In this document: piece by piece, positions 22,901 to 39,871 of the stretch
Numbering within the stretch: the first letter of the stretch is position 1
Layout: each line of letters starts with the position of its first letter
Virus record (IMG/VR): IMGVR_UViG_3300032307_000652
Span: 1 to 64,000 of that record
Direction: 5' to 3' (one strand)
Origin: a virus
Length of the DNA: 64,000 bases
Translations under genes and position numbers: made by a program
Notes under the pieces: model-generated
The model's database searches: none
The model's input: the letters and a program-made list of their open reading frames with translations, nothing else
What the model was told of the DNA's origin: nothing

Positions 22901-25900
22901 ATGGCTCAACAGAATATAAATCAATTCAATTTTAAAAAGTGGTATGTTAAACCTGTCCCAAAAATTTTTGACATTTGTTTAGCATCAGATGAAAAAGATT
23001 ATAACGAAGAAGTTGTATTTTCAACTAATCTTATTGGTTATAATGATGGTAATAGATTACCTATTTATTTTGATTTAAATAATCCTTTATCATCACAAGA
23101 ACTAACAATTAACTATGGTGATTTTTTATCAGGTAATACTTTAGTATCATTAAATTACTACAATCCACTAAATGAAGATTTAAATTGTTTAACTGCATCT
23201 ACATTATGCGATATTGGATTAACAGGTATAGATAATGGTTTAGTACCACAAATGACTGGTGAAACAATTAATTATACGATGGGTCTATTTACTGGGTCAA
23301 GTAAATGGGATAGATATCATTTTGATAGAAGAACAAAATTATTTCAGGTAACTGGATATACTAATCCACCAAATGAAAGATTTTCAGGAAATACAAAACA
23401 AACTTTGTATAACATGGTTTCAGAATCAGGTTATACCATTACATATTACAATCAATTGTATGGAGGATTTTATCAAGGTTTCTTTAGATTGTTTGGATAT
23501 GACTACGAAACATTTCCAAGTAGAACAAACGAAGGATGGACTGTTGAGATGTTAATTAGACCAAGATATGTTGATGAATTTGCTCCGACATCATCTCAAA
23601 CAACTTTAAATTTAACATATCCTGAAAATGAAAATACTTTTTTCTACTTTGGAGCAAGAGCTGAAAATAAATTTTACCATCACGCTTCAGGTTCACCTGC
23701 TTCAGATAGTGGTTATACAAGAGTTACTAGTGTTTTAGAAGGGTGTTTAGAAACTTGTGCTTGTTCGAATACAGGTATAACCAATTCAAGATGTGTTGAA
23801 GTTTATGAACCATTAGTTTATACCCCACAACATAATACCGATTGTAACTGTGGGTGTAACGCAACCACCGAAGTCCCAAATAGTGACAAAGACCCTTTAT
23901 ACGATTCAATGTCAAATTCATTTTCATTGAGATTATCTGGTGACCCTAAAAACCCAAAAGTTTGTGTTAAAGTTTTGACATTTACAGGTGGATGTGTTAC
24001 TACGGGTACTTGTCCAACAACGGGAATTACATATCAAACAGGTTATACGATAACTGAATATTGTTCATCTAATCAAATTTTTGATTATTGTGAAAATTTA
24101 AATTCTGATTATACAACAAAAGAACATTGGATTTTAGTGGATTGTGTGTGGGAAAGAAGTACCTATTTTGATACTTGTGATTTATATTATCGAGGCGGTT
24201 TAGGATTGATTAGTGAAACAGAATATGTTGATAGTTTATCAAACAACAGTATTTTACTTATTCAACCACCAATCACACACGAAGGCTCACCACCTGCGGA
24301 ACAAGTCGAAATAGTTAACCTAAATGAAAGATGGTTAATTGAAAGAGAAGATAGGTTAGGGGTTTTAAAAATTTATATTAACGGAAGATTATTTTATGTT
24401 ATAAATGGATTTGAAGAAGTTATTCCGAGAGCTTTAAATACTGAAAAAGAAAAACAATTAGGTGTTCCGTTTAATATTTCATGGGGTGGTGGAACACAAG
24501 GTTTAAGAGAAAGTTTAACTTTCACAGGATGTCCAACAACCTTAACAGGATTGACATACATGCAAGACCCTGAGGTTATGCCAAATCAAACATTGTCAGG
24601 AACTTCATTATCAGGTTTAACAACCAATATATTATTAGAACCAACTTTTGGTGGGACGTTTGATGGAGCAATTTCTCAATTTAGAATGTATACTGAACCA
24701 TTAACTTATCCTGAAGTTATACATAATTTTGATATTTTAAAAAGTCCGTTTTTACTTTTTGACTACGGATGTCCAGATTGTTCTGACGGATTGATTAACG
24801 ATATTTGTTTATTAGTTTCAGGTAATAATCTTACAGTTACCTCAACTACTTTTGCTGATAGAACATTTAACTTATATTATGAAGTTTCAGAATCAAATCC
24901 AAGATATTTGATTACATCAGGTCAGACATTTCCATTTACAGTTAACAATACTACAATACCTAATTGTTGTTATAATAACTTTTATTTACATTTAATTGAG
25001 GATGACCAAACTTTAATTTTAACTTGTTTTATTCCTAGTGAACCAACCCCAACTCCAACACCGACTATAACACCAACCATAACACCTACAAATACAATTA
25101 CCCCAACACCAACTGTAACGTCAACTAAAACACCGACACCAACAATAACCCCAACCCCAACGGTAACTCAAAGTACGGGAGCGTTAGTTGTTCCGTTATG
25201 TTCGGTAATTTATGTTGATGATATTAATGACATTTATAGTTATAACGTTAGTACCAATACTAGTACATTACTACCAATACCATTTACAATTTATAATGGA
25301 GATATTGGTCACACTCAAAATAAATTATGGACAACAAGTTATACCTCAGTTAGAGAATGGAATATTACTTTAAATCCATTTACCGCAACTTATAATAGAG
25401 ATTTAAATTTCCCATTCACAATAGGTGTAGGATTAGGGGTTATTAATAATACAACACTTATTGTTACAAATACTAACCCTCCACAATCAATTTATGAAAT
25501 GGACATTACAACAAACACACCTGTCCCAACGTATAAGTTTGATTTACCTGCAGGTCATAGTGTAGCTGGTGATATTTTATTAACAACAACTAATAAACTT
25601 TTAGTAACAACTTCTCAAATTACTAACATATACTTATTACAGTACGATTATTTAACAGGTAATTTAGAATTAACCATATCCCTTAATGGTACTGTAAGTG
25701 GTGGACCTTGGGGTATATTTGAAGATTCAGGTAATATTTATGTTGGTACAGGTACTGGTAATGTTTATTCTGTTGATACAACATATCCGTATAACATTAC
25801 TTTTATTAATAATACAGGGAACCCAATATATGGAGCATCTCAAATACCATCTTGTTTAGATAGTGAATTTATTATTCCTACAGTTGAATTAAATTCATAT

Positions 25901-26812
25901 ATAAATCCTGGGTCTATTGTTGTTAATTACGAAGCAACTTTAAATGAAAGCATCGGGGTTAATACAAATATATCATTTGAACAATCTTTAGGTATAATTG
26001 GTGGAGGTTTTTATAGTATTACATCGGGAATTACTATAAATTCAGGTACTACTTCCGCAACAACTTACGTTAATTTATCGTCGGCGAATTTTAATTTATT
26101 AGATAGAACATCAACAATTTCAGTATCAGGTTTATCACCTATTATTTTATCGGTATCATCTAATGAAATTTTTGCAACACCGACCCCAACACCTAGTATC
26201 ACACCAACTAATACGATAACACCAACAGTGACTCCAAGTGTTACACCAACAATGACTCAAAGTCAAACCCCTACAAATACACCAACAGTAACACAAACTC
26301 CAACCGTAACTAAAACACCAACCAACACACCAACAGTAACTAAAACACCAACGGTAACTCCTACAACTAGTTTAACTCCATCACCATCACCTGCAGAACC
26401 TTTAAATATGTATGTGATTGGTAATCAAAAGAATGGTGATTGTTCAGTATCAAGTATGGTTATTCAGTATAGAAATATAAATGGTAATTATATTAGTCAA
26501 ACTTTAGGTTCTCTTAGTGATATTGGTTATATGACAGTTGTGTCTTATGCGAGTTACCCACCAAGATGGATATCAGGACCTGCTTCACCTGATGGATTTG
26601 ATTTAATTGATTTAGGAACTTATTCATCTACAAGTTGTTATAATTTCCAAGCGACGACTTATTGTCAAACATTACCACCTGACTTAACTTTAAATTATGT
26701 TGATTGTAATGGTGTAAGTCAAACTATAGACTACGCAGGTGAAAGTGTTTACACATTCTCAGCCAGAACATTCACAGCAGAAAACAAAATACAAATTCAA
26801 AAACTACCTTAA
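22901..26812 (+). CDS. large virion-surface protein: LamG/ConA-like domain, Cys-rich inserts, two Pro-Thr linkers, propeller-like domain
   Basis: WTVEMLIRP...LKIYINGRL...FDGAISQFRMYTEPLTYPEV (LamG); PT repeats; late motif upstream. Confidence 0.7.
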   Translation: MAQQNINQFNFKKWYVKPVPKIFDICLASDEKDYNEEVVFSTNLIGYNDGNRLPIYFDLNNPLSSQELTINYGDFLSGNTLVSLNYYNPLNEDLNCLTASTLCDIGLTGIDNGLVPQMTGETINYTMGLFTGSSKWDRYHFDRRTKLFQVTGYTNPPNERFSGNTKQTLYNMVSESGYTITYYNQLYGGFYQGFFRLFGYDYETFPSRTNEGWTVEMLIRPRYVDEFAPTSSQTTLNLTYPENENTFFYFGARAENKFYHHASGSPASDSGYTRVTSVLEGCLETCACSNTGITNSRCVEVYEPLVYTPQHNTDCNCGCNATTEVPNSDKDPLYDSMSNSFSLRLSGDPKNPKVCVKVLTFTGGCVTTGTCPTTGITYQTGYTITEYCSSNQIFDYCENLNSDYTTKEHWILVDCVWERSTYFDTCDLYYRGGLGLISETEYVDSLSNNSILLIQPPITHEGSPPAEQVEIVNLNERWLIEREDRLGVLKIYINGRLFYVINGFEEVIPRALNTEKEKQLGVPFNISWGGGTQGLRESLTFTGCPTTLTGLTYMQDPEVMPNQTLSGTSLSGLTTNILLEPTFGGTFDGAISQFRMYTEPLTYPEVIHNFDILKSPFLLFDYGCPDCSDGLINDICLLVSGNNLTVTSTTFADRTFNLYYEVSESNPRYLITSGQTFPFTVNNTTIPNCCYNNFYLHLIEDDQTLILTCFIPSEPTPTPTPTITPTITPTNTITPTPTVTSTKTPTPTITPTPTVTQSTGALVVPLCSVIYVDDINDIYSYNVSTNTSTLLPIPFTIYNGDIGHTQNKLWTTSYTSVREWNITLNPFTATYNRDLNFPFTIGVGLGVINNTTLIVTNTNPPQSIYEMDITTNTPVPTYKFDLPAGHSVAGDILLTTTNKLLVTTSQITNIYLLQYDYLTGNLELTISLNGTVSGGPWGIFEDSGNIYVGTGTGNVYSVDTTYPYNITFINNTGNPIYGASQIPSCLDSEFIIPTVELNSYINPGSIVVNYEATLNESIGVNTNISFEQSLGIIGGGFYSITSGITINSGTTSATTYVNLSSANFNLLDRTSTISVSGLSPIILSVSSNEIFATPTPTPSITPTNTITPTVTPSVTPTMTQSQTPTNTPTVTQTPTVTKTPTNTPTVTKTPTVTPTTSLTPSPSPAEPLNMYVIGNQKNGDCSVSSMVIQYRNINGNYISQTLGSLSDIGYMTVVSYASYPPRWISGPASPDGFDLIDLGTYSSTSCYNFQATTYCQTLPPDLTLNYVDCNGVSQTIDYAGESVYTFSARTFTAENKIQIQKLP
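25043..25168 (+). repeat. Pro-Thr low-complexity repeat 1
   Basis: Encodes PTPTPTPTITPTITPTNTITPTPTVTSTKTPTPTITPTPTVT with degenerate codons. Confidence 0.95.
26177..26392 (+). repeat. Pro-Thr low-complexity repeat 2
   Basis: Encodes TPTPTPSITPTNTITPTVTPSVTP...TPTVTKTPTNTPTVTKTPTVTPTTSLTPSPSP. Confidence 0.95.
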
Positions 26813-26819
26813 TTTAAAT

Positions 26820-26848
26820 TTGACTTATAATCTTTGATTGGTTAAACT
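26820..26848 (+). promoter_or_regulatory. sigma70-like early/middle promoter of DNA polymerase
   Basis: AAAT-TTGACT-N17-TAAACT; same -35 context as the SSB promoter. Confidence 0.7.
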
Positions 26849-26856
26849 TACCACAC

Positions 26857-26884
26857 AAGGTAAATTCCGACCTTAATTTCGGAA
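26857..26884 (+). promoter_or_regulatory. putative H-type RNA pseudoknot in the polymerase leader
   Basis: AAGGT (26857-61) pairs with ACCTT (26870-74); TTCCG (26865-69) pairs with CGGAA (26880-84). Confidence 0.5.
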
Positions 26885-26907
26885 GCAAATACACCATTTT
26901 AAATTTT

Positions 26908-29835
26908 ATGATATCAAACGAAGAAATTGAAAATTTCCTTCAGGGAAATGATGACGAAAAATATATCGTCAGTGTCGAATACGATTATGTTAAAGATTGT
27001 GTTTGGAAAATTATCGAACACCCAATTCACGGAAAACAAATTAAGAAAGATACCTTTATCCCATTTGCTTGGGTAGGTGATTTACGTGGGTTAAACTTCT
27101 ACAAATCCTCAAAAGCATTACAGAAAGAGGCAATGACAAAACATAAAATTGTTATTGAAAAATTAAGAACCGATGGTAACGAAAGATTAGAAAAAGGTTT
27201 AACCTTTATGGTTAAATCATTGAACGGTTATCGCTCACTTATTCAGTTTTTCAGAGACGGTGGCGTTGACCCTTGGGGTGAAACAACCAAAGGTTTAGTT
27301 TTAATATTACCTCCTGTAGAACAATTCTTGGTTACAAAAGAAAAACGATTATTCAAAGGATTTGATGATTACAATAGTATTACAAGGTTTGTATTTGACT
27401 TGGAGACGACCGCATTAGAACCAAAGGATGGTCGTATCTTTATGATAGGAATGAAAACCAATAAAGGTTTTAGTCAAGTAATTGAGTGTTCAACTGAAGA
27501 ACAAGAAAGAGAAGGTATTATCAAATTCTTTAATACCATAGATGAACTTAAACCAAGTATCATTGCGTCTTACAACGGATTTAACTTTGACTGGTTTTGG
27601 TTATTTGAAAGAGCCAAAGCTTTAAAGTTGGATATTAAAAAAATTGCTAAAACTCTTAACCCAATCAACCCAATCAAACAATCTGAAAGTTTATTGAAAC
27701 TGGCAAACGAGGTTGAGCGATTTAACCAAACATCTATGTGGGGTTATAACGTCGTTGATACGTTACACGCAGTTAGAAGAGCTCAAGCAATTAACTCATC
27801 TATCAAATCTGCGGGTTTGAAATATATTAGCCAATATATTAAGGCTGAGGCACCTGACCGTGTTTATATTGACCACACAGATATTGGTCCGTTCTACGCA
27901 AAGAAAGAAGAGTTTTGGTTAAACATTCAAAACGGAAAATACAAGAAAGTAGGTGTTGACCCAAAGATTGACGAAGCGTGTTCTAAACATTCAAACATAT
28001 ATATTAAAACAACAGGAGATGATTTAGTTGAACGATATCTTGACGATGACTTGGAGGAAACCTTAACTGTTGACGAAGAATTTAATCAGGGTTCGTTCTT
28101 ACTTGCGTCTTTGGTCCCAACAACATACGAAAGGGTTTCTACAATGGGAACTGCAACATTATGGGAAATCCAAATGAGAGCGTGGTCTTATAAACACATG
28201 TTGGCCATTCCTGCTAAGAATGAAAAGACAGAATTTGTTGGTGGTTTATCACGATTACTTAAAGTAGGTTATTCAACTGACGTATTGAAACTTGACTTCT
28301 CGTCACTTTATCCGTCAATACAACTTGTTCACGATGTATTCCCAACCTGTGATATTACAGGAGCAATGAAGGGTATGTTAAATTACTTCCGTAATACTCG
28401 TATCAAGTATAAAAACTTGGCAAAGGAATATCAGGATATTGATAAAAAACAAGCAACATCTTACGACAGAAAACAATTGCCGATTAAGATTTTCATTAAC
28501 TCAATGTTCGGAGCATTATCCGCTCCACAAGTATATCACTGGGGTGATATGTATATGGGTGAACAGATTACCTGTACAGGACGACAATACCTTCGTCAGA
28601 TGTTACGTTTCTTTATGAAACGAGGTTATACACCACTTGTATGTGATACGGATGGTATGAACTTCTCATTACCTGAAGGTGGTGTAGAAGATAGAAGATA
28701 CATTGGTAAGGGTAAGAATTGGCTTGTTAAAGAAGGTAAGGAATACAAAGGTTATGATGCAGATGTTGCCGAGTTTAACGATATGTTTATGAAAGGTGCG
28801 ATGGGTCTTGATTGTGATGGAACATGGAAATCCTGTATGAACATTGCTCGTAAGAACTACGCAACAATGGAACATAATGGTAAGATTAAACTTACAGGTA
28901 ACTCAATCAAGAGTAAAAAACTTCCACTTTATATTGAGGACTTTTTGGATAAAGGAATTAAGATGTTACTTGAAGGTAATGGACAAGCATTTGTTGAGTG
29001 GTATTATGAGTACTTAGAAGTAATCTTTAACCAACAAATTCCATTAATGAAGATTGCTCAAAGAGCGAAAGTAAAACTATCTATTGACGATTATAACAAA
29101 CGTTCAAAAGAAAAAACCAAGGCGGGAAATGAAATGTCTCGTATGGCTCATATGGAATTAGCGATGAGAGATGGAATTGCAGTTAGTTTAGGTGATGTAA
29201 TATTTTATGTTAACAACGGTGTTAAAGCATCACACGGAGATGTTCAAAAGGTTAATAAACCTAAAAAAGGATGGTCTCAAGAACAATTAGATATGTTTTT
29301 CAAAACCAATGAAGATAGAAAAGAAAAGGTAAAATTTTTACAAAAAAATGGATGGGAACAATCTTGGGGTGAGGATAACTGGGTTCGTAGTGATGCGACA
29401 AATAAGGAAGCGAATACAGGAATTTCAACAGACCGCGCATATCAAATAGCATTTTCAGATATAGTCGGTTCAGTAGTTCAACTTAATTGTTATCGTCTTG
29501 ACCCATCTGAATTGGAATCAAACCCTGATATGACAGGTGAATACAACGTAGCAAGAGCAATTGTTACCTTTAACAAAAGAATTGAACCATTATTAATTGT
29601 GTTTAATGAAGAGGTTAGAAATAATCTAATTGTAACTGACCCTAAAGACAGAGGTTTATTTACCAAAGAACAATGTAAACTAATTAATGGCGTTCCTTTT
29701 GAACCTGCCGACCAAGATAGTATTGAAGATTTGTTAACAATAACAGACCAAGAAATGGTGTATTGGGGTAAACGAGGAATTGACCCTGAATATATTTACG
29801 AATTAGCTGAAGAAGGATGGGAAGAAATGGTTTAA
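26908..29835 (+). CDS. family B DNA polymerase with 3'-5' exonuclease
   Basis: FDLETT, YNGFNFDW, YLDDD; LDFSSLYPS, KIFINSMFG, CDTDG, KNYA. Confidence 0.95.
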   Translation: MISNEEIENFLQGNDDEKYIVSVEYDYVKDCVWKIIEHPIHGKQIKKDTFIPFAWVGDLRGLNFYKSSKALQKEAMTKHKIVIEKLRTDGNERLEKGLTFMVKSLNGYRSLIQFFRDGGVDPWGETTKGLVLILPPVEQFLVTKEKRLFKGFDDYNSITRFVFDLETTALEPKDGRIFMIGMKTNKGFSQVIECSTEEQEREGIIKFFNTIDELKPSIIASYNGFNFDWFWLFERAKALKLDIKKIAKTLNPINPIKQSESLLKLANEVERFNQTSMWGYNVVDTLHAVRRAQAINSSIKSAGLKYISQYIKAEAPDRVYIDHTDIGPFYAKKEEFWLNIQNGKYKKVGVDPKIDEACSKHSNIYIKTTGDDLVERYLDDDLEETLTVDEEFNQGSFLLASLVPTTYERVSTMGTATLWEIQMRAWSYKHMLAIPAKNEKTEFVGGLSRLLKVGYSTDVLKLDFSSLYPSIQLVHDVFPTCDITGAMKGMLNYFRNTRIKYKNLAKEYQDIDKKQATSYDRKQLPIKIFINSMFGALSAPQVYHWGDMYMGEQITCTGRQYLRQMLRFFMKRGYTPLVCDTDGMNFSLPEGGVEDRRYIGKGKNWLVKEGKEYKGYDADVAEFNDMFMKGAMGLDCDGTWKSCMNIARKNYATMEHNGKIKLTGNSIKSKKLPLYIEDFLDKGIKMLLEGNGQAFVEWYYEYLEVIFNQQIPLMKIAQRAKVKLSIDDYNKRSKEKTKAGNEMSRMAHMELAMRDGIAVSLGDVIFYVNNGVKASHGDVQKVNKPKKGWSQEQLDMFFKTNEDRKEKVKFLQKNGWEQSWGEDNWVRSDATNKEANTGISTDRAYQIAFSDIVGSVVQLNCYRLDPSELESNPDMTGEYNVARAIVTFNKRIEPLLIVFNEEVRNNLIVTDPKDRGLFTKEQCKLINGVPFEPADQDSIEDLLTITDQEMVYWGKRGIDPEYIYELAEEGWEEMV

Positions 29836-30167
29836 GACTGTTTCAACCCGTCTGATGAAACTATATACCAACTACCAAATGCGTAATATAGTTCAACACA
29901 AGCACCTTTTTCAATATTAATTTCATTAAACTCTTCATCAATCAAACCCTCAATGGGTTTGATTTTTGTTTTTGTAAGTGCTTTTACTATTACGTGGTCA
30001 GTATTGTTATGGTTTAAAATAATTTCAATTTCATCCAATTCTTTTGTAATCACAACACTCTCACCTTCTGTTGTATATTTTTCATCTGAAATCATACATA
30101 CTTCAGAAGTTGTTAATACTTGGTTTCCGATAACTCTTCTCATCGGAATTGATTTTTGAACGCTCAT
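29832..30167 (-). CDS. small beta-rich putative virion protein (111 aa)
   Basis: Follows the neck gene; C-terminal ID...VELYY..GSWYI resembles tail-associated beta domains. Confidence 0.55.
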   Translation of the reverse strand: MSVQKSIPMRRVIGNQVLTTSEVCMISDEKYTTEGESVVITKELDEIEIILNHNNTDHVIVKALTKTKIKPIEGLIDEEFNEINIEKGACVELYYAFGSWYIVSSDGLKQS

Positions 30168-30170
30168 AAA

Positions 30171-31301
30171 TTAAATAACATACATATTTCTTGGGAACGC
30201 TCTAAACTTCATTTGTTTGTTTAAGTTTTCAGCAAGTAATGCTTCTCGTTCCATTATTTTTTCAGGACGTAACCTTGTTAATCTGCCATCGGCACCAATT
30301 AACTCTTCAATTAATTTTAATTTTTCGTCTTTACCTTCAGTCGCCAATGAAGCGTAATCCATTGTTAATTCAGAATCAGGTGTTTTTAAATTTCCTGAGT
30401 ATTTTCCTCTTACTTTGGCTAGTGTTTCTTTACATCCCGCAACAAAATATCTTCTAACCCATTGTTGTGCCGGTTCATTTAAATCCGCCCAAGCAATTGA
30501 ATTCATAGGGACATCTGAAGGTAGTTTAATAATATCAGGGTTGGCGGCCAAACAAGCATCTCTATCTTCAGGGCCAACATCATAATACCAATACCAAACT
30601 TGTGAGTGTCTTAAAGATGAATTACCAAAGTCAAATTTACCGCCAGGTGTCTGCATCAAATGAATCGCTTTTTTACCATTAGGTAAACCTGTAATTCTAT
30701 AAGTTAAATCACCGGCAATAATTCTTCTTTGAATATTAATTTCTTGTAATCTTAGTAACATATCAAATGCTGGCATCATAAAGTATGAACCAGTATAACC
30801 CATTTGTGAATAACCTGCCGGTCCACCCATACCATAACCACCTAACGCCCCAAAACTCCATGGGTCAAATAATACATTTGTTAATTCAGATGGTGTAAAC
30901 CATAATAATTCATTAATTTCACGACCTGCTGGAATTTCATAAATTTGTTGGTTTGGGACTAACGTGATATAATCTTTTTTAAGAACCCAATCTCCAAGTG
31001 GGGATGATTGTAAACCAACTATTTTAGAATATGCTTGGGCATATCTATTTTCAAAATCTAAACTTTTAGTAACGAAAGCTCTTGATAAAGATTGTGTATC
31101 TAAATTTAAGTTATTTAATGAAGTCCATTGTGACTCAATTAACCAATCTTGAACGTATTGGGCGTAATCCCCAATAGAAAATTCTAAGATTGAGTCCATT
31201 TGTTCATCTTCCAATTCAATAGAACGAATTGGAGCTCCTAATACGTGTCTAACTTTTGTGTATAGTTGACTTCTGTATGGTTCGGCGATTATTGTATTCA
31301 T
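30171..31301 (-). CDS. neck protein (T4 gp13-like)
   Basis: LGAPIRSIELEDEQMD; WVRRYFVAGCKETLAKVRGKY...EGKDEKLKLIEEL; TATTTATA at 31324-31317. Confidence 0.75.
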   Translation of the reverse strand: MNTIIAEPYRSQLYTKVRHVLGAPIRSIELEDEQMDSILEFSIGDYAQYVQDWLIESQWTSLNNLNLDTQSLSRAFVTKSLDFENRYAQAYSKIVGLQSSPLGDWVLKKDYITLVPNQQIYEIPAGREINELLWFTPSELTNVLFDPWSFGALGGYGMGGPAGYSQMGYTGSYFMMPAFDMLLRLQEINIQRRIIAGDLTYRITGLPNGKKAIHLMQTPGGKFDFGNSSLRHSQVWYWYYDVGPEDRDACLAANPDIIKLPSDVPMNSIAWADLNEPAQQWVRRYFVAGCKETLAKVRGKYSGNLKTPDSELTMDYASLATEGKDEKLKLIEELIGADGRLTRLRPEKIMEREALLAENLNKQMKFRAFPRNMYVI

Positions 31302-31324
31302 GAAGTGATATTTTTATATAAATA

Positions 31325-32830
31325 TCAATTCAGAGTATAAATTAAATCTTGTGTTGGGATTTTAAACATACTTGAACTAAAAGCTACTGTTTTGTTTTTA
31401 AAAATATAAACTTCTTTGTTAAGATTTGAGAAAATTAATAAGTCGGTATTAAATTTTTTGACAAACCCTTTGATTTTAATATGGTAAAAACCTTCAATTA
31501 CTTCCATATTTAAAATTGGTTTTACTTGAGCTGTTTGTATTTTATCATCAAAATTAACTGTTAAATCTGTACCCGCAAAATCTTCTTTTGAACCTAAACT
31601 ACCTACGATAACCGCGGTACCATCTCCGAATTCTTTATTGATTTTTTTAGCGACATACTCCTCAAGTTGACCACCTTTGTCATGTGTTCTTTTTAAAAGT
31701 TTCATAATTTTATCAAGAGTTTTAGAACCTTTAAAAATTCTTTCACCAAAAAAACTCAGATATTCACAAAATTTATTTATTTCTTCTACTTGTTGTGAAG
31801 GTGTTACCCCAATAAAATTTAATGTGGGTTTATTTAGTTTTGTAAGAACAGCATTTAAATCATCAACTAAAATTTTAAACCCAATATAGTTTGTATTTAA
31901 TTTATTAATTACTGAACGACCTGGTTGTTCTAAGTCGTAAATACCTGAAGACGAACCTTCAGAGTATTGATTGTTTTCACGCCACTTATCAGATAAAACT
32001 CTTTTTAATGTATTATCAATACATCTTCTATAAGTCCAAAGAACATTTTTATTATTACTAAAAATATCTGAATAATCAGATACGTTTTCGTATAAAAGTT
32101 TTTTTTGTGAAATTGACTCGTTCAATTTTTTTTCAGTTTTTGATTTGTATAACTCGTTAACAAATTCCCAATTAATTACGTCCCAAAAATTTTCAATATA
32201 TTCGTCTCTTTTGTTTTGGTATTTTAAATAATAAGCGTGTTCCCACAAATCTAAACCTAACAACGGAAAACCACCTTTGTTTATTATGTTCATAAGTGGG
32301 TTGTCCTGATTTGAAGTTGACATAACTTTTAATCTACCAGTATCGGTTAACACTAACCAACACCATCCTGAACCAAATCTTTTTCTTGAGATTTCTTCAA
32401 ATTTAGTTTTGAAGTTACGATATGTTCCAAATTGTTTAACAATCTTTTCAAACACTTCACCACTTGGTTTTTGTGGGGTTGGTGATAACATCTTCCAAAA
32501 CAATGCGTGATTAAATGCTCCACCTGCGTTGTTTCTTATTGTTGTATTATACTTTGAAATTTGTTTAACAATGTTTTCTAATTCAACATCACCATAATCT
32601 TTTTTACGAAGAGCTGAATTTAATTTTTTCACATACCCCTTGTAATGTTTTTGATAATGAAACTTCATTGTTTCGGGGTCAATAAATCTTCTTAATGATG
32701 CGTATCCATAAGGTAATTTATCAATACCTATGGTTTTCATTTCGTTAATAAAAAATTTGGTTTCAGGTTGAGTTTCCTCACCTAATATGCGACTAACTAA
32801 TGACTCTGATACTAAATTTAACGATTTCAT
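31325..32830 (-). CDS. Mn/Fe superoxide dismutase fused to a C-terminal PD-(D/E)XK-like domain
   Basis: HYQKHYKGY, NNAGGAFNHALFW, FGSGWCWL, NQDNP, DLWEHAYY; ~250 extra aa with GGQLEEYV...DFAGTDL...AQVKP; TATTTATA at 32842-32835. Confidence 0.85.
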   Translation of the reverse strand: MKSLNLVSESLVSRILGEETQPETKFFINEMKTIGIDKLPYGYASLRRFIDPETMKFHYQKHYKGYVKKLNSALRKKDYGDVELENIVKQISKYNTTIRNNAGGAFNHALFWKMLSPTPQKPSGEVFEKIVKQFGTYRNFKTKFEEISRKRFGSGWCWLVLTDTGRLKVMSTSNQDNPLMNIINKGGFPLLGLDLWEHAYYLKYQNKRDEYIENFWDVINWEFVNELYKSKTEKKLNESISQKKLLYENVSDYSDIFSNNKNVLWTYRRCIDNTLKRVLSDKWRENNQYSEGSSSGIYDLEQPGRSVINKLNTNYIGFKILVDDLNAVLTKLNKPTLNFIGVTPSQQVEEINKFCEYLSFFGERIFKGSKTLDKIMKLLKRTHDKGGQLEEYVAKKINKEFGDGTAVIVGSLGSKEDFAGTDLTVNFDDKIQTAQVKPILNMEVIEGFYHIKIKGFVKKFNTDLLIFSNLNKEVYIFKNKTVAFSSSMFKIPTQDLIYTLN

Positions 32831-32843
32831 TAATTATAAATAC

Positions 32844-34604: not shown

Positions 34605-34661
34605 AATATTTTAATTAACTATACAACTATAATAATAATCAAAAAAGAAATATTTATCAAT

Positions 34662-35177
34662 ATGTCAAATAGAATAGTTCCAATAACAAGATTAGGTAAA
34701 TTTTTCGGAGCGGAAGATTACAACTTAGATATTAGTATGGGGAGAGAATGGTTAGAAGGTGATATGAACTTCACTCTTGTACTATATCGTGTTGACAAAC
34801 AGAAGACAAATGTTGATGATGTTTATGGTGAGGCGTCGGTTGATGGGATTAAATTTTTACCCCCTGTTGAGTTTAAGGCTTTTTTACAAATTGTTGCCCC
34901 TGAAAATAAATTTCTTGGGTCAAGTAAGATTAATCAAATGGAACCAGGTAACGCAAGAATTTCTGTTTACCAAAAACATTTAGATGAATTAGAAATCGAT
35001 ATTGAACTTGGAGATTATATTGGATATTATGAAACTGAAACCCAAGTGAGGTATTATGTGGTTAATAATGATGGTCGTGTTGTTTCAGATAACAAACACA
35101 CATACGCAGGATATAAACCATTTTATAGAACAATAAACGCATCTCCTGTAATGGAAAACGAATTTAGAGGATTATAA
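34662..35177 (+). CDS. head-closure/neck protein (T4 gp14-like)
   Basis: Likely start ATG 34662 after TATTTATC (34651-58); VLYRVD...DDVYGE...F.PPVE; precedes the tail terminator. Confidence 0.55.
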   Translation: MSNRIVPITRLGKFFGAEDYNLDISMGREWLEGDMNFTLVLYRVDKQKTNVDDVYGEASVDGIKFLPPVEFKAFLQIVAPENKFLGSSKINQMEPGNARISVYQKHLDELEIDIELGDYIGYYETETQVRYYVVNNDGRVVSDNKHTYAGYKPFYRTINASPVMENEFRGL

Positions 35178-35178
35178 A

Positions 35179-35337
35179 ATGAAAATTATTATTTCTGAAA
35201 AACAATTAAGAATGATTGTTGAGACAATACAAGATGGTAGGGTGATTTGTGATTGTGGTTGGTCTTGGGACTTATCTGACGGAGGAAACGACCCATATAT
35301 TTGTCATAAATGTGGTAATAATAATGAAGAAAAATAA
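35179..35337 (+). CDS. 52-aa zinc-ribbon protein (not in ORF track)
   Basis: MKIIISEKQLRMIVETIQDGRVICDCGWSWDLSDGGNDPYICHKCGNNNEEK; fills the gap exactly and its TAA overlaps the next ATG. Confidence 0.8.
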   Translation: MKIIISEKQLRMIVETIQDGRVICDCGWSWDLSDGGNDPYICHKCGNNNEEK

Positions 35338-36389
35338 TGGCGTTACCTAAAATTAAAAAAACTTTACCTTTAACATACCCTCCTGTCGGTTATGAAAGAA
35401 GATTAGAACTTCTTGAAGATATCAATAAGGACGGAACTTACTTGCCTAAATCTATTTTACATGAAGATTTAGATAGAGGTTTTTTGGATTTTGTTAAAAA
35501 CGATTTAAAAACGGTTGTTGGTGGAAAAGTTGTCAGAGTTGTTGATATATTAATGACAACTCAGAATTGGGCTCAATTCACACAAACTTGGGATTTTAAT
35601 AACATTGATAAAAATGTTCAACCTCCAATTATTACAACAGTAAGAACACCTGAAGTAAAATTTGGGTCATTACCTTCATTAAGATATAATATACCAAATA
35701 GAAAACAATATTATTATGCTGCGGTCCCAACATGGGATGGACAAAGAAAAGGTATGGATATATATACTATTCCACAACCAGTTCCTGTTGATATAAAATT
35801 TTCAGTTAAAATTATCTGTAATAGAATGAGAGAATTGAATAAATTCAATCAAATTGTTATCGAAAAATTTGCGTCTCGTCAAGCTTATACTCAAATTAAA
35901 GGACATTACATTCCAATAACACTTGACGAAGTATCTGATGAATCGGTTATGGATGTGGAAAAAAGAAGATATTATATACAATCTTACGCTTTCACACTAC
36001 AAGGATTTTTAAGTGATGAAGAAGAATATGAAGTTAAACCTGCAATTAGTAGGAGTTTAATGTTAGTTGAGTTAGACAACAGAAAGAAAAAAGTAAAAAG
36101 AAAACAATACCCACCAAATCCTGACCAATATGTTTTTAATGCTAATTTTCCTGTAGGTGTAACTTCTTATACTCAAACATTTAGTTATTCGGCAAATATT
36201 AATATTAATGGTGATGTTAATATAAACACGTATGAATTCTTAATTAACGGGTTATATTATGGAAACAATATTACAACATTACCCGCTGGTGTGATACAAA
36301 TTAATACAAATGATATTTTAACTATTAATATTGTTAAAACAAATAACGCTCAACCATCGTCATTTAATTTAGTTTCAACACTAATCTAA
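35337..36389 (+). CDS. tail terminator / sheath stabiliser (T4 gp15-like)
   Basis: PQPVPVDIKFSVKI...LNKFNQIVIEKF; position before the sheath gene. Confidence 0.65.
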   Translation: MALPKIKKTLPLTYPPVGYERRLELLEDINKDGTYLPKSILHEDLDRGFLDFVKNDLKTVVGGKVVRVVDILMTTQNWAQFTQTWDFNNIDKNVQPPIITTVRTPEVKFGSLPSLRYNIPNRKQYYYAAVPTWDGQRKGMDIYTIPQPVPVDIKFSVKIICNRMRELNKFNQIVIEKFASRQAYTQIKGHYIPITLDEVSDESVMDVEKRRYYIQSYAFTLQGFLSDEEEYEVKPAISRSLMLVELDNRKKKVKRKQYPPNPDQYVFNANFPVGVTSYTQTFSYSANININGDVNINTYEFLINGLYYGNNITTLPAGVIQINTNDILTINIVKTNNAQPSSFNLVSTLI

Positions 36390-36535
36390 CGTTCCCCGTA
36401 GATATCTTTTTTTTCCTCACAATTATCCTTAATTAGTTTTTCTAAAAACTTATGAATTTTTAAACCATGTTTCATACAGTAGTCCTTTAGGATTTTATGA
36501 CTGTCAGGGGATATTTTTATATTCTTAATTTCCAA
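36386..36535 (-). CDS. 49-aa ribbon-helix-helix DNA-binding protein (not in ORF track)
   Basis: TTG start; MEIKNIKISPDSHKILKDYCMKHGLKIHKFLEKLIKDNCEEKKDIYGER; TATTTATA at 36577-36570 upstream. Confidence 0.7.
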   Translation of the reverse strand: MEIKNIKISPDSHKILKDYCMKHGLKIHKFLEKLIKDNCEEKKDIYGER

Positions 36536-36553
36536 GGTAGAAAAAAGGTAGAA
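36534..36553. promoter_or_regulatory. direct repeat AAGGTAGAA x2 (11-bp period), putative operator
   Basis: Copies at 36534-42 and 36545-53, between the late motif and the RHH start. Confidence 0.5.
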
Positions 36554-36569
36554 TTTATTCTTACTGATT

Positions 36570-36621
36570 TATAAATAGTTAGTAATGCCATTAGTTTTTG
36601 ATTAGAATGACAATATTTATC
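36570..36621. promoter_or_regulatory. divergent putative late promoters (RHH gene / tail sheath)
   Basis: TATTTATA on minus at 36577-36570; TATTTATC on plus at 36614-36621. Confidence 0.65.
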
Positions 36622-36655
36622 AATAAATAAATTTTTAAAAACATTTAAAATAAAC

Positions 36656-39600
36656 ATGGCAACATCAAACAAAGTTTTCGTCTCGCCGGGTGTATATACA
36701 TCAGAAAGAGACTTATCATTTGTTTCACAAAGTGTCGGAGTTACTACTTTAGGTATAGTTGGGGAAACCTTGAGAGGTCCAGCGTTTGAACCTATATTCA
36801 TTTCAAGCTACGGAGAATTTGAAACTTACTTCGGTAGTACACTTCCTGAAAAATTTGTGAATACACAAATCCCAAAATATGAAGCTGCATACATTGCTAA
36901 ATCATATTTACAACAATCAAATCAACTTTTTGTAACAAGAGTTTTAGGTTTATCAGGTTATGACGCAGGTCCTTCTTGGTCTATCACAACAGTTGCTAAT
37001 GTTGATTGTAATACTATTGGAATTACTGGTGGAACTTCATTTAGTTTTGACTTTACGGGTTCAACCGCATCAACAACTTCAATACAGTTTACTTCAGCAG
37101 TCCCTTCAGTGATTTCAGGTAATACTTATTACTCAAATAACTACACAGCATTTGATGGTACTAATTCATCAATATTGTCAGATTTAAGAAGTCAGATATC
37201 AAGTATTTTATCAACTAATTCATTATCTGCAACATCAGCATATTATTTTGGTCCTGTTTCAGGAACTCAAGTTAACGCAAATGTTGTTGCGGGTTTAACT
37301 TCCGCAACAAATGTGTTTGATGTTGATAGTATAAGTGCTTCAACAATAGATTATTGTTCAGGTACAAATGACGCTTGGTTCTATGCTAACTTCGTACCGC
37401 CAGCAACAGGTGAGGCGTATTACGGAAACTCTTTCTATACTAATATTAGTTCTTTATCAGGAAGTGCGTTTAGTACCGCTGGAAGTTTTACAGGAACTGT
37501 TTCAGGTTATTATTATGGATTTTCAGGTTTAACTTATTCAGGTTATAATGATTTAGTAATTGCGACACTTCGTTCAAGAGGGGTAACTAATTATTCATCT
37601 ACTCAACATGGTCCTGAATATCAAGTAACAGGAACTTCTGACGTTCAAATGATTTGTACAGGAAGTTACTCTGCGGTAACTCAAAATCCATTTGCGACAT
37701 TTGTAATTTCAGGTTTAAGTTACGATTCAACATCATTTAGTTTTGAAACGTCTTTTACACCTTCAAACGCTAACTTTATAACTAAAGTATTTGGAGTTGA
37801 AAACTTCGCTAAAGACCAATCTGAAGTTCCTTTGTTTGTTGAAGAAAGATATTCTACATTGTTATCTTACGGATATAATAAAGGATTTATTAGAGGATTA
37901 AATTGTTCTTTAATATCTTTACCTGAAGCAAGAAATAATAATATTGATTCAATCGCATATTATTTAGAAAGATATCAAACTCCACAATCACCATGGGTTG
38001 TTTCAGAATTACGTGGTAATTTAGTTTACAGATTATTCAGAGCTGTTACAATTTCTGACGGAAATGATGCGAACGCTGAAATTAAAATTTCAATCGCAAA
38101 CATTTCATTTAACAATGGAACATTTGATTTAATTGTTAGAGATTTCTTTGACACAGATTCTAACCCTGTTGTTTTAGAGAAATTCACTAATTGTAGTATG
38201 AATCCTGGTGAAAACAACTACGTAGCTAAAAAAGTTGGTAGTTCAGATGGTGAGTTCGCAATAAAATCAAAATTCATTATGGTTGAAATTAACACGGAAG
38301 CTCCAGTTGACGCTCTTCCTTGTGGTTTTGAAGGTTTTGAAACTCGTAAATACACAGGTGCTAAATCACCGTTCCAAATTTATAAAACAAAGTATGACTA
38401 TCCTGGTGAAGTTATTTACAACCCACCATTTGGAACTACTGCTGGTTTAGATAATGCGGTTCAAAGTTCAGGTGATAACATAAGAAGAACTTATTTAGGT
38501 ATTTCTTCAGCAGTGGCTTTCTCATCAGACTCACCAGGTTATGACCCTGATTTCTTCCAATATAAAGGAATGCCAAATCCAATAACAACAACTTGTACTG
38601 AGCCAAGTCATGTAAGTTGGGGATTACAAACTAAAGGTTTCCACATGGATAGTGGAGCAACTTCGGTAACAATAGCAAATGTTTACTCAAATAGTGGACA
38701 AACAGCGTTTTATGTTGGAGCTGGGTCATTTAGTTCTGAACCTACTTCACAAACTAGCCCATATTACTTCTTGTATTCTCGTAAGTTTACTTTCTTGGTA
38801 CAAGGTGGTTTTGATGGATGGGATATCTATCGTGAATACAGAACAAATGCTGACCGTTACAGATTAGGTAACACTGGTTATAAACAAGGAGCGTTAGCGG
38901 GTTGTGTACCTTACACAGATGCTACAGGATGGGGAGCGTTTAAACAAATCACAGTTGGTGATAACACAGTTGATTACGCAAACACTGACTATTATGCATA
39001 CCTATTGGGTGTTCAACAATTCGCAAATCCTGAGGTAACAAATATCAATGTGTTAGTAACACCTGGTATTGATTATGTTAACAATGGTGATTTAGTAGAA
39101 CAAGTAATTGATATTGTTGAGAATGACAGAGCGGACTCAATCTACATCTGTACAACTCCTGATTTCAATTTATTACAACCTTCAACTTCAATGGATAATT
39201 TAATTTACCCACAAGAAGCGGTTGATAACTTGGAAAACACTAATATTGATTCTAACTATACCGCAACTTACTACCCATGGGTTCTTACTCGTGATACGGT
39301 AAATAACACTCAAATCTATATTCCAGCAACGGCTGAAGCAACAAGAAACTTCGCGTTAACAGATAACATCGCGTTCCCATGGTTCGCAACTGCTGGTTAT
39401 ACAAGAGGTGTGGTAAATGCGGTTAGAGCTCGTAAGAGATTAACTCAAGAAGATAGAGATACTCTTTACAAAGGAAGAATTAACCCAATCGCAACTTTCA
39501 ACGACGTTGGAACTGTTATTTGGGGTAATAAAACTCTTCAAATTAGAGAGTCAGCTCTTGACAGAATTAACGTAAGAAGATTGTTATTACAAGCTCGTAA

Positions 39601-39871
39601 GTTGATTTCAGCAGTAGCCGTAAGATTATTGTTCGAACAAAACGACAACTTAGTAAGACAACAATTCTTAGATTCTGTTAACCCAATCTTAGATGCGATT
39701 CGTAGAGATAGAGGTTTGTATGACTTCAGAGTTACTGTTCAAAACACACCTGAAGACTTAGACGCTAACCAAATGGTAGGTAAGATTTACATCAAACCAA
39801 CTAAAGCTCTTGAATTCATTGATATTGAGTTCTTAATCACTCCAACAGGAGCATCGTTTGAAAATATCTAA
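36656..39871 (+). CDS. contractile tail sheath protein (T4 gp18-like) with S/T/G-rich insertion
   Basis: FVSPGVYTSERDLS, GPAFEP, PWFATAGYTRG, LYKGRINPI, WGNKTLQ, RINVRRLL, IKPTKALEFI. Confidence 0.96.
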   Translation: MATSNKVFVSPGVYTSERDLSFVSQSVGVTTLGIVGETLRGPAFEPIFISSYGEFETYFGSTLPEKFVNTQIPKYEAAYIAKSYLQQSNQLFVTRVLGLSGYDAGPSWSITTVANVDCNTIGITGGTSFSFDFTGSTASTTSIQFTSAVPSVISGNTYYSNNYTAFDGTNSSILSDLRSQISSILSTNSLSATSAYYFGPVSGTQVNANVVAGLTSATNVFDVDSISASTIDYCSGTNDAWFYANFVPPATGEAYYGNSFYTNISSLSGSAFSTAGSFTGTVSGYYYGFSGLTYSGYNDLVIATLRSRGVTNYSSTQHGPEYQVTGTSDVQMICTGSYSAVTQNPFATFVISGLSYDSTSFSFETSFTPSNANFITKVFGVENFAKDQSEVPLFVEERYSTLLSYGYNKGFIRGLNCSLISLPEARNNNIDSIAYYLERYQTPQSPWVVSELRGNLVYRLFRAVTISDGNDANAEIKISIANISFNNGTFDLIVRDFFDTDSNPVVLEKFTNCSMNPGENNYVAKKVGSSDGEFAIKSKFIMVEINTEAPVDALPCGFEGFETRKYTGAKSPFQIYKTKYDYPGEVIYNPPFGTTAGLDNAVQSSGDNIRRTYLGISSAVAFSSDSPGYDPDFFQYKGMPNPITTTCTEPSHVSWGLQTKGFHMDSGATSVTIANVYSNSGQTAFYVGAGSFSSEPTSQTSPYYFLYSRKFTFLVQGGFDGWDIYREYRTNADRYRLGNTGYKQGALAGCVPYTDATGWGAFKQITVGDNTVDYANTDYYAYLLGVQQFANPEVTNINVLVTPGIDYVNNGDLVEQVIDIVENDRADSIYICTTPDFNLLQPSTSMDNLIYPQEAVDNLENTNIDSNYTATYYPWVLTRDTVNNTQIYIPATAEATRNFALTDNIAFPWFATAGYTRGVVNAVRARKRLTQEDRDTLYKGRINPIATFNDVGTVIWGNKTLQIRESALDRINVRRLLLQARKLISAVAVRLLFEQNDNLVRQQFLDSVNPILDAIRRDRGLYDFRVTVQNTPEDLDANQMVGKIYIKPTKALEFIDIEFLITPTGASFENI

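What the first reader, a model, noticed from the sequence alone, without database searches (positions are those of the whole stretch)
22901..39871. [ST]-G-x-T motif strongly enriched in structural proteins: candidate glycosylation sequon
Seen: by eye the 1303-aa protein has about 14 strict [ST]GxT tetrapeptides (SGNT x2, TGET, TGYT x2, SGYT x2, TGIT x2, TGLT, SGLT, SGQT, SGIT, SGTT); a rough composition estimate predicts only 2-3. The sheath has 6 (TGGT, TGST, SGNT, SGLT, SGAT, SGQT), four of them in its S/T/G-rich insertion, plus variants such as SATS and SAST. The hub protein has SGQT and SGST. I found none in the 975-aa polymerase. The copies sit in unrelated sequence contexts, so they are not a tandem repeat. 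Inference: a dispersed short motif concentrated in virion proteins behaves like an enzyme recognition sequon, plausibly for the initiating glycosyltransferase of the neighbouring operon.
Basis: partly seen in the sequence, partly recalled or inferred. Interest (0 to 1): 0.85.

Follow-up and report, generated by a model that had tools for sequence, protein, structure and literature searches.

The report
Ser/Thr-Gly-x-Thr tags on phage virion proteins
The outer virion proteins of this uncultured low-GC jumbo phage and its many relatives carry the four-residue pattern Ser/Thr-Gly(Ala)-x-Thr three to seven times more often than chance; this is best read as a docking site for the phage's own soluble sugar-adding enzymes, but no sugar has been shown.

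Summary

**Counts**
- They reproduce exactly: 14 [ST]GxT in the 1303-aa protein (about 3 expected), 6 in the sheath (about 1.9), 0 in PolB.
- Nine fibre/baseplate ORFs beyond the window add 44 (about 16 expected).

**Nature of the signal**
- It survives 10-40-aa local shuffles and is directional.
- It needs all three positions, uses synonymous codons freely, and is not a repeat.

**Spread**
- It is 1.7-7x enriched in every relative locus I sampled across a wide group of about 300-kb aquatic phages.
- It is absent from random S/T-rich viral proteins, T4 fibres, Mel-JY01 and XacN1.

**Behaviour within one protein family**
- In one baseplate family the sites turn over: 29 positions among 13 homologues, and three homologues have none.
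- A syntenic brine-lake relative has charged residues at the two hydroxyl positions.
- So the motif is exposed and not needed for the fold.

**Reading**
- This pattern suggests a trans-acting reader. The best candidate is the conserved core of the phage's membrane-free glycosyltransferase clusters (GT60-like, two GT-B, one GT-A).
- This is unproven: XacN1 has a GT60 homologue but no motif, and the hub protein is at chance.

First readers of this scan noted the same motif in at least six other genomes, and one of those has had a follow-up.

The parts
22901..26812 (+). 1303-aa Cys- and Thr-rich protein with 14 [ST]GxT (17 with Ala at +1). It has a ConA/LamG-like N-terminal part, two Pro-Thr linkers (about residues 713-757 and 1093-1160) and a C-terminal domain matching phrog_15511. 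Residues 1-708 and 757-990 match two separate ORFs that flank the GT60 cassette in relatives.
36656..39871 (+). Tail sheath, 1071 aa. It has 6 [ST]GxT (9 with Ala), all in the lineage-specific insertions (residues 124-339 and 666-680) and none in the conserved Phage_sheath_1/1C core (residues 789-1059).
625..20233 (-). Glycan-building cluster: GT2 x4, GT10-like, GT8, GT25, a GT2_5+GT4 fusion, two weak GT-B, GDP-mannose 4,6-dehydratase, a DegT aminotransferase and methyltransferases. PhoH, dUTPase and an exonuclease are interspersed. No ORF has a membrane segment.
19019..20233 (-). 404-aa GT-B-like enzyme. It is conserved in G001 (77%) and in the distant complete relative G004 (46%) and absent from XacN1. 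It belongs to the conserved GT core and is a candidate motif reader.
625..2491 (-). Two conserved-core genes: a 272-aa GT-A (weak GT2 match) and a 352-aa GT-B (weak GT1 match). Both are shared with G001 and G004.
6171..15491 (-). Variable middle of the cluster (GT10-like, GT2, GT8, methyltransferases). It has no BLAST counterpart in G001, apart from the FkbM-neighbouring methyltransferase with a weak G004 match. It looks like a strain-specific glycan-elaboration cassette.
26908..29835 (+).
49581..55742 (+).

Best explanation
**What it is.** [ST]-G/A-x-T is a short surface tag, selected at the protein level, on the exposed virion proteins: sheath insertions, distal baseplate and fibre proteins, a LamG-like Cys-rich protein, and weakly the capsid protein. 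It occurs across a large lineage of about 300-kb low-GC aquatic phages.

**Proposed mechanism (inferred, not shown).**
1. It is the acceptor or recognition site for one of the phage's conserved soluble glycosyltransferases, which works in the host cytoplasm on folded or folding virion proteins.
2. The enzyme places a first sugar on an exposed hydroxyl. Position 0 accepts Ser or Thr. Position +3 must be Thr.
3. The variable GT/methyltransferase cassette then extends that sugar into a strain-specific glycan coat.

**Shown here.**
- The enrichment, its direction, and its need for all three positions.
- Protein-level selection.
- Restriction to this lineage.
- Site turnover with the number of sites kept.
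- Exposure of the two hydroxyl positions, by substitution pattern.
- The GT clusters exist and have no membrane proteins.

**Inferred only.** That a GT reads the motif, which GT it is, and which residue is modified.
For: **Statistics**
- 11 proteins (6939 aa): [ST]G.T 64 against 20.5 (z 9.8); [ST]A.T 32 against 9.2. The reverse motif is only 1.4x.
- Breaking any one position removes the signal: [^ST]G.T 0.77x, [ST]G.[^ST] 0.97x, [ST][^G].T 0.79x.
- The rest of the proteome has 7 against 11.4.
- Independent out-of-window replication.

**Selection level and repeats**
- Codons at the motif follow background usage and both Ser codon families are used.
- BLAST finds no paralogy between the motif-bearing regions.

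**Lineage restriction**
- Complete relative G001 3.8x (z 18); complete distant relative G004 3.5x.
- All 67 further relative loci that were scored are 1.7-7x.
- Controls: random S/T-rich viral ORFs 1.09x, T4 fibres 0.98x, Mel-JY01 1.28x n.s., XacN1 0.80x.

**Trans-acting signature in the 360-aa baseplate family**
- S/T, G/A and T are kept while x varies.
- Motifs occupy 29 different positions in 13 homologues.
- Three orthologues have none.
- The syntenic brine relative L246 has 2 motifs in 7 ORFs (1.8 expected). At our motif sites it carries D/E/N/K at position 0 and a hydrophobic residue at x.

**Enzymes**
- At least 12 GT domains, a nucleotide-sugar pathway, and a PF11397 (GT60) gene at E 2.4e-68, with no membrane protein.
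- A GT core is conserved with G001 and G004, while the middle cassette is strain-specific.
- The GT60 cassette sits next to motif-rich genes in two different arrangements.
Against: - No glycan has been observed.
- XacN1 carries a GT60 homologue (47% identity) without any enrichment. GT60 alone is therefore not sufficient, or its specificity differs.
- The only motif-free relatives are short fragments, so whether they lack the GTs is unknown. The brine relative is also confounded by its habitat.
- Non-virion proteins show no motif-specific avoidance: in G001 the forward and reverse motifs are equally low (23 against 30.7 and 23 against 29.9).
- Six large late proteins with 15-17% S+T are not enriched.
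- Some sites are conserved with x (TGYT), which also fits a structural role.
- In one relative the motif sits four times in each unit of a 36-aa structural fibre repeat.
- The Pro-Thr linkers are the classical target type for GT60 enzymes.
Confidence: 0.45

Rival explanations
1. The motif is a lineage-specific structural or biophysical surface pattern with no modification. An exposed Ser/Thr is followed by a small residue at a turn or bulge, a buried residue, and an exposed Thr that starts or caps a beta-strand. Selection would be for uncharged, hydroxyl-rich, water- or polysaccharide-friendly surfaces. This resembles the T-A/G-X-T/N ice-binding motif of Flavobacterium frigoris IBP.
For: - Flanks are hydrophobic at -1 and +4.
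- The brine orthologues have turn-formers (G/N/D/S) at +1 and hydrophobic residues at x.
- In the AF2 model the motifs lie at hairpin turns and strand ends of beta-sandwich domains.
- Several sites are conserved together with x.
- A 36-aa fibre repeat contains four copies per unit.
- A published motif of the same form exists on a Flavobacterium beta-helix (PMC5334608).
- Thr is preferred over Ser at +3, as beta-propensity predicts.
Against: - Random S/T-rich viral proteins and T4 fibres show no enrichment.
- The reverse motif is not enriched.
- Asn at +1, also a turn former, is depleted here (0.31x).
- Ala replaces Gly at the same sites, so a positive-phi turn is not required.
- The same fold exists with no motif at all.
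- Sites turn over across 29 positions in one family.
- The motif occurs in unrelated folds with no single secondary-structure context.
- No tested protein matched the DUF3494 family.
Confidence: 0.3
2. The motif is read by a different trans-acting factor: a Ser/Thr kinase or other modifying enzyme, a chaperone, a cement or decoration protein, or a host component. The glycosyltransferases would then serve another target, such as the Pro-Thr linkers, DNA, or host surface glycans.
For: - The turnover-with-density pattern demands a trans-acting reader but does not name it.
- GT60 enzymes are known (from established knowledge of Dictyostelium and Trypanosoma enzymes) to modify Thr-rich mucin-like stretches. 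Such linkers are present at residues 713-757 and 1093-1160 of the 1303-aa protein.
- XacN1 has GT60 without the motif.
Against: - No kinase or other protein-modifying enzyme turned up among the ORFs scanned with Pfam or PHROGs; these cover most ORFs of the window and some beyond it.
- The GT clusters are by far the largest set of candidate protein-modifying genes, and they have no export machinery that would suit a host-surface role.
Confidence: 0.13
3. The enrichment comes from diverged copies of short fibre modules spread by recombination among virion genes, i.e. hidden repeats rather than selection on the tetrapeptide itself.
For: - A 36-aa tandem fibre repeat in L046 carries four motif copies per unit.
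- Its 'SATTY.NL' piece recurs in the window's 1303-aa protein and in fibre 80463-82679.
Against: - All-against-all BLAST of 17 late proteins finds only Pro-Thr linker matches.
- Sequence contexts are diverse.
- Motifs arise at new positions inside one orthologous family.
- The motif occurs in PKD-like, LamG-like, SprB-repeat, collagen-flanking and sheath-insertion contexts.
Confidence: 0.07
4. It is a chance or composition artefact of S/T/G-rich proteins, picked out after the fact.
For: The proteins are rich in S, T and G.
Against: - 0 of 2000 local shuffles reach the observed counts.
- It is the top non-linker signal in an unbiased pattern scan.
Confidence: 0.02

Closest known systems
Virion O-glycosylation of mycobacteriophages (Che8, Corndog, Myrna; Freeman et al. 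2023, as cited in PMC12619734)
   Same: Phage-encoded soluble glycosyltransferases lie near structural genes. Modification of virion proteins inside the host cytoplasm is proposed, and a glycan coat is the suggested outcome.
   Different: There the glycans were shown by experiment and sit on C-terminal parts of the capsid and tail-tube subunits. Two or so GTs are involved, and no dispersed short sequon is described. Here nothing has been shown by experiment, there are more than 15 GT domains, and the candidate sites are dispersed tetrapeptides in sheath insertions, baseplate and fibre proteins.
GT60 polypeptide alpha-GlcNAc-transferases (Pfam PF11397; Dictyostelium and Trypanosoma enzymes)
   Same: The phage gene at genome 90311-91555 matches the family at E 2.4e-68. 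The family starts O-glycans on Thr/Ser of proteins, and Thr is preferred at the strict position of the motif.
   Different: Known members act on Thr-rich mucin-like stretches (or on hydroxyproline of Skp1), not on an [ST]-G-x-T site. A phage with a 47%-identical homologue (XacN1) lacks the motif.
T-A/G-X-T/N ice-binding motif of Flavobacterium frigoris IBP (DUF3494 fold; PMC5334608), and the Ala-Ala-Thr repeat of fish antifreeze glycoproteins
   Same: The residue pattern is the same: hydroxyl, small residue, any residue, Thr. The probable host phylum (Bacteroidota) is also shared. In the fish antifreeze glycoproteins each Thr of the repeat carries an O-linked disaccharide.
   Different: Those motifs form regular arrays on one flat face of a beta-helix, or a strict tandem repeat. 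Here the copies are dispersed, sit in beta-sandwich and other folds, and move between homologues. No DUF3494 match was found in the proteins scanned.
Bacteroidota general O-glycosylation sequon D-[ST]-[AILVMT]
   Same: It is a three-residue O-glycosylation sequon used in the probable host phylum.
   Different: It is periplasmic and depends on a lipid-linked donor. It is not enriched in these proteins (23 against 24.2).
'Moraphages', aquatic jumbo phages predicted to infect Flavobacteriia (PMC12619734)
   Same: They are aquatic phages of more than 200 kb with a predicted Bacteroidota host, several core glycosyltransferase families, and DnaK. DnaK was found here in G001 and G002.
   Different: Identity of the two lineages was not tested. 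In the passages read, the paper raises virion glycosylation only as a possibility, and no motif was seen.

Membership tests
Protein glycosylation sequon (general concept) | Over-represented in target proteins relative to composition, and direction-specific | tested here: met
   3.1x (z 9.8) against 1.4x for the reverse motif, and all three positions are needed. 0 of 2000 local shuffles reach the counts.
Protein glycosylation sequon (general concept) | Sites lie on solvent-exposed parts of the folded substrate | tested here: inconclusive
   The evidence is indirect. Motif-free orthologues carry D/E/N/K at position 0 (11 of 18) and mostly polar residues at +3. Sheath sites lie only in the insertions. 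No coordinates were available to measure accessibility. The AF2 models were weak to moderate (pLDDT 41 and 63.5).
Protein glycosylation sequon (general concept) | Presence of the motif tracks presence of the enzyme across lineages | tested here: inconclusive
   Two complete motif-rich relatives (G001, G004) carry GT60 and the core GTs. XacN1 has GT60 but no motif. The motif-free relatives are fragments of 3-12 kb.
Protein glycosylation sequon (general concept) | A glycan is attached at the site | not testable with these tools
   This needs mass spectrometry or an enzymatic assay.
GT60 / PF11397 polypeptide GlcNAc-transferase | Sequence match above the family's curated threshold | tested here: met
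   231.6 bits against a cut-off of 21, E 2.4e-68, for genome 90311-91555. Homologues are present in G001-G004 and XacN1.
GT60 / PF11397 polypeptide GlcNAc-transferase | Transfers GlcNAc to Thr/Ser of a protein acceptor | not testable with these tools
   No assay was possible. The catalytic motifs were not examined here.
Mycobacteriophage-type virion glycosylation | Phage-encoded soluble GTs without export machinery, next to virion genes | tested here: met
   GT domains. No membrane segment in either cluster. The GT60 cassette directly follows the fibre genes here and the LamG-like protein in relatives.
Mycobacteriophage-type virion glycosylation | Glycans on the C-termini of capsid and tail-tube subunits | tested here: not met
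   This was tested only through motif location. The tail tube has 0 motifs and the capsid protein only 3-4 (1.0-1.6 expected). The motif is concentrated in the sheath insertions, baseplate and fibres.
IBP-1 (DUF3494) ice-binding T-A/G-X-T/N surface | Tetrapeptide pattern Thr - Ala/Gly - x - Thr/Asn | tested here: met
   [ST][GA].T is enriched. However [ST]G.N is not enriched in relatives.
IBP-1 (DUF3494) ice-binding T-A/G-X-T/N surface | Beta-helix fold with the motifs stacked in register on one flat face | tested here: not met
   No DUF3494 match was found in the proteins scanned. The modelled protein is PKD-like plus a second beta-sandwich. Motif spacing is irregular.
Bacteroidota O-glycosylation sequon D-[ST]-[AILVMT] | Enrichment of that sequon in the candidate substrates | tested here: not met
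   23 observed against 24.2 expected.
Tandem or dispersed repeat family | Copies share flanking sequence or a fixed period | tested here: not met
   No BLAST paralogy beyond the Pro-Thr linkers. Contexts are diverse. The exception is a 36-aa fibre repeat in relative L046.

The most novel reading that the evidence does not exclude
A whole lineage of aquatic jumbo phages, probably infecting Flavobacteriia, runs a general sequon-directed cytoplasmic O-glycosylation system. A conserved soluble GT reads [ST]-G-x-T on exposed turns of many unrelated virion proteins, and a fast-evolving GT cassette builds strain-specific glycans on it. The virion thereby gets a variable sugar coat. The accepted motif itself drifts between sublineages: Gly only in G004, Gly or Ala in this clade.
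Probability: 0.4. Interest if true: 0.88.

Novelty: new variant of a known kind. Interest (0 to 1): 0.72.

Why it matters
Protein glycosylation of phage particles has been shown by experiment only in a few mycobacteriophages, and I know of no phage sequon, though my literature search was limited.

If [ST]-G-x-T is read by a phage glycosyltransferase:
- It would be a simple, portable, cytoplasmic O-glycosylation tag, which is of interest for glyco-engineering.
- It would explain why these phages spend 20-25 kb on sugar genes.
- It would point to glycan coats as a variable outer layer in phage-host and phage-grazer interactions in lakes.

Even if no sugar is attached, the pattern is unusual. A three-position motif has been gained again and again in dozens of unrelated proteins across a deep lineage and is absent from the same folds elsewhere. 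That is a rare and clean signature of a trans-acting reader, and it can be tested directly with a handful of recombinant proteins.

Tried and rejected
**Explanations tested and rejected**
- Composition artefact: rejected by global shuffles and by 10-, 20- and 40-aa local shuffles.
- DNA-level word (methylation or restriction site, promoter): rejected. Codons follow background usage, both Ser codon families are used, and the top hexamers occur only in frame 0.
- General property of S/T-rich fibres: rejected with 80 random IMG/VR loci, T4 fibres and Mel-JY01.
- GT60 as a sufficient cause: rejected with XacN1.
- N-x-S/T and D-[ST]-[AILVMT] sequons: not enriched.
- Avoidance of the motif in non-virion proteins: no motif-specific signal, because the reverse motif is equally low.

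**Steps that led nowhere**
- The AF2 model of the 1303-aa N-terminal 720 residues was unusable (pLDDT 41).
- A PDB sequence search with the repeat-bearing fibre of L046 found nothing.
- Literature searches for GT60 in phages found nothing relevant.
- IMG/VR holds no close relative of P0143. The one metagenome hit is a 9.3-kb contig.
- A further scan seeded with the brine relative's conserved baseplate gene returned only motif-rich lineages.
Full report
**What the window is.**
- The window is the first 64 kb of a single 94,876-bp, 30%-GC viral contig.
- It encodes a contractile-tail sheath, a tail tube and a family-B polymerase.
- It also encodes a 20-kb minus-strand cluster of sugar genes: four GT2, a GT10-like, a GT8, a GT25, a GT2_5+GT4 fusion, two weak GT-B, GDP-mannose 4,6-dehydratase, a DegT aminotransferase and methyltransferases.
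- A second GT cluster at the contig's far end starts with a strong PF11397 (GT60, polypeptide GlcNAc-transferase family) match, E 2.4e-68.
- No ORF in either cluster has a membrane segment.
- The GT60 gene has 225 relatives in IMG/VR on contigs of up to 294 kb. One of these, G001, is rated 100% complete. The contig is therefore a fragment of a jumbo phage of about 290 kb.
- Three observations fit a Bacteroidota host and possibly the 'moraphage' lineage, though that identity was not tested: an SprB-repeat match in one fibre, DnaK in G001 and G002, and the description of aquatic 'moraphages' in PMC12619734.

- Counts reproduce exactly: 14 [ST]GxT in the 1303-aa ORF, 6 in the sheath, 2 in the 2053-aa protein and 0 in PolB.
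- For the 1303-aa ORF none of 2000 shuffles reaches 14, whether residues are shuffled globally or within 10-, 20- or 40-aa blocks; about 3 are expected.
- The sheath is significant but modest: 6 against about 1.9, with 16-25 of 2000 shuffles reaching it.
PolB's zero has an expectation of only 0.34, and the 'hub' is at chance.
- Six other large late proteins together show nothing (4 against 5.9). The motif marks a subset of late proteins.

- Nine fibre/baseplate ORFs at genome 75512-90257 carry 44 [ST]GxT (15-17 expected) and 70 [ST][GA]xT (22-24 expected). None of 2000 shuffles reaches either count.
- An unbiased scan of all three-residue gapped patterns in the S/T-rich proteins of G001 puts SA.T, SG.T and TG.T at the top, once the Pro-Thr linker patterns are set aside.

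**Anatomy of the signal.** Pooled over 11 proteins:
- [ST]G.T is 3.1x (z 9.8) and [ST]A.T is 3.5x.
- The reversed motif is 1.4x and [ST]G.S is 1.8x.
- [ST]N.T is depleted (0.31x).
- Breaking any one of the three positions abolishes the effect: [^ST]G.T 0.77x, [ST]G.[^ST] 0.97x, [ST][^G].T 0.79x.

Further properties:
- Positions -1 and +4 favour hydrophobic residues.
- Codons at the motif mirror background usage, with both Ser codon families, and the commonest hexamers occur only in frame. Selection is therefore on the protein.
- All-against-all BLAST of 17 late proteins finds only Pro-Thr linker similarity, so the copies are not detectable paralogous modules.
- The motif occurs in a LamG-like protein, the sheath insertions, a PKD-like baseplate protein, an SprB-repeat fibre, a collagen-like fibre and others.

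**It is specific to a lineage.**

| Set | Result |
|---|---|
| 80 GT60-anchored relative loci | 2.6x in S/T-rich ORFs |
| G001 (complete) | 167 against 43.5 (z 18); reverse 1.09x |
| G004 (310 kb, terminal repeats, distant) | 3.5x |
| 67 further relative loci scored | each 1.7-7x |
| 80 randomly hit IMG/VR loci | 1.09x in S/T-rich ORFs; no single protein stands out |
| T4 fibres | 0.98x |
| Mel-JY01 (nearest isolate by sheath; has GTs, no GT60) | 1.28x, not significant |
| XacN1 (GT60 homologue, 47% identity) | 0.80x |

The 67 further loci were reached through three different, very diverged baseplate queries.

- The flavour of the motif varies. Most sublineages, including G004, enrich only Gly at +1 and never Ser at +3. 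This clade and one other also use S-A-x-T.

**The motif is not needed for the fold, and its sites move.**
- The 360-aa baseplate protein (genome 75512-76594) has more than 1500 homologues.
- In 121 of them, several sites keep S/T, G/A and T while x varies freely; Gly and Ala alternate at the same column.
- Among 13 homologues spanning 25-45% identity, the motif occupies 29 different positions. Distant pairs share only 2-4 of 8-14 sites, and three orthologues have none.
- One of these lies on a syntenic 9.3-kb brine-lake contig. Its seven ORFs hold 2 motifs (1.8 expected), against 16 in the two main orthologues here.
- At our 18 motif sites the brine proteins carry D/E/N/K at position 0 in 11 cases, G/N/D/S at +1, hydrophobic residues at x, and mostly polar residues at +3.
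- The two hydroxyl positions are therefore exposed and x tends to be buried.
- In the moderate AF2 model (pLDDT 63.5; PKD-like plus a second beta-sandwich) the sites fall at a hairpin turn, at strand starts, inside a strand and just after a strand. There is no single structural context.

**Reading.**
- The tri-residue pattern has been gained repeatedly, at changing positions, on exposed parts of many unrelated proteins. It occurs throughout one lineage and not elsewhere. This suggests a trans-acting reader rather than a folding rule.
- The obvious candidates are the glycosyltransferases. They are soluble and numerous.
- They are split into two parts:
  - a core conserved with G001 and G004 (GT60, the 404-aa and 352-aa GT-B, the 272-aa GT-A, the 549-aa fusion);
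  - a middle cassette with no counterpart even in G001.
- This layout matches a conserved initiating step followed by strain-specific elaboration.
- The GT60 cassette lies directly after motif-rich genes in two different arrangements. One of these is conserved synteny and so is not independent evidence.
- I put this reading at about 0.45.

**Why not higher.**
- Nothing shows a sugar.
- XacN1 breaks a simple link between GT60 and the motif.
- The motif-free relatives are fragments, and the brine one differs in habitat.
- Non-virion proteins show no motif-specific avoidance.
- Some sites are conserved together with x.
- In relative L046 the motif sits four times in each unit of a 36-aa fibre repeat.
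- A motif of the same form, T-A/G-X-T/N, is a known ice-binding surface element of a Flavobacterium protein (PMC5334608).
- The Pro-Thr linkers in the same proteins are the more orthodox GT60 targets.

**The 1303-aa protein.**
- Its status as a virion component is not shown.
- It is a fusion of two ORFs that flank the GT60 cassette in relatives: residues 1-708 and 757-990 each match at 82% identity.

**Limits.**
- One of the two structure predictions failed.
- No model coordinates were available to measure accessibility.
- ORFs in relatives were called mechanically.

**Earlier notes of this scan.**
- First readers of this scan noted the same motif in at least six other phage genomes, and one of those notes has a follow-up that partly supports the same reading.
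- These are leads, not independent evidence.
- They agree with the lineage-wide enrichment measured here.

Noticed in passing
window 22901-26812; L013 4449-6578 and 15390-18647: The 1303-aa ORF is a fusion. Residues 1-708 and 757-990 each match (82% identity) separate ORFs that flank the GT60 cassette in relatives. Here the cassette sits after the fibre genes instead. The join falls in a Pro-Thr linker, which suggests recombination between linkers.
   Followed up: partly
window 6171-15491 and 17129-17758: The middle of the GT cluster (GT10-like, GT2, GT8, GT25, methyltransferases) has no counterpart in the 75-87%-identical relative G001, while the flanking GT genes are conserved. It looks like a hypervariable glycan-elaboration cassette.
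   Followed up: partly
L046 2749-6771: A 1340-aa fibre protein in a relative has 50 motif copies. Most lie in a tandem repeat of about 36 aa with four copies per unit. It has no PDB sequence match.
   Followed up: partly
L246 (metagenome contig SL_7KL_010_BRINEDRAFT_10002124): This brine-lake relative (26% GC) has six syntenic baseplate genes at 34-66% identity. It has lower S+T, and charged residues where this phage has the motif.
   Followed up: yes
G004 (L318-L333), whole genome: This complete 310-kb distant relative enriches only [ST]-G-x-T (about 4x) and not the Ala variant. This clade uses both. The accepted motif seems to drift between sublineages.
   Followed up: partly
G001 S/T-rich proteins: A second family of over-represented triplets (NIA, IAI, AIG, IIG, NIG, AIR) suggests an N-I-A-I-G-type repeat, reminiscent of YadA-head repeats, in one fibre of the relative.
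   Followed up: no
window 31325-32830 (-): A complete Fe/Mn superoxide dismutase (both Pfam domains) occupies the first 226 residues of a 501-aa protein. The C-terminal half is unassigned.
   Followed up: no
genome 86092-87651 (L002 9092-10651): A collagen-like (Gly-X-Y, Ser/Thr-rich) fibre protein, next to a LamG-domain protein (genome 87621-89312).
   Followed up: no
G001 228880-230661; G002 268472-270250: Full-length DnaK (HSP70) genes occur in two relatives, as reported for the 'moraphage' lineage of aquatic jumbo phages (PMC12619734).
   Followed up: partly
window 17758-18327 and 18324-19022 (-): A dUTPase/dCTP-deaminase-like gene and a PolB-type 3'-5' exonuclease gene lie inside the GT cluster. 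A role for some of the GTs in DNA modification was not excluded.
   Followed up: no
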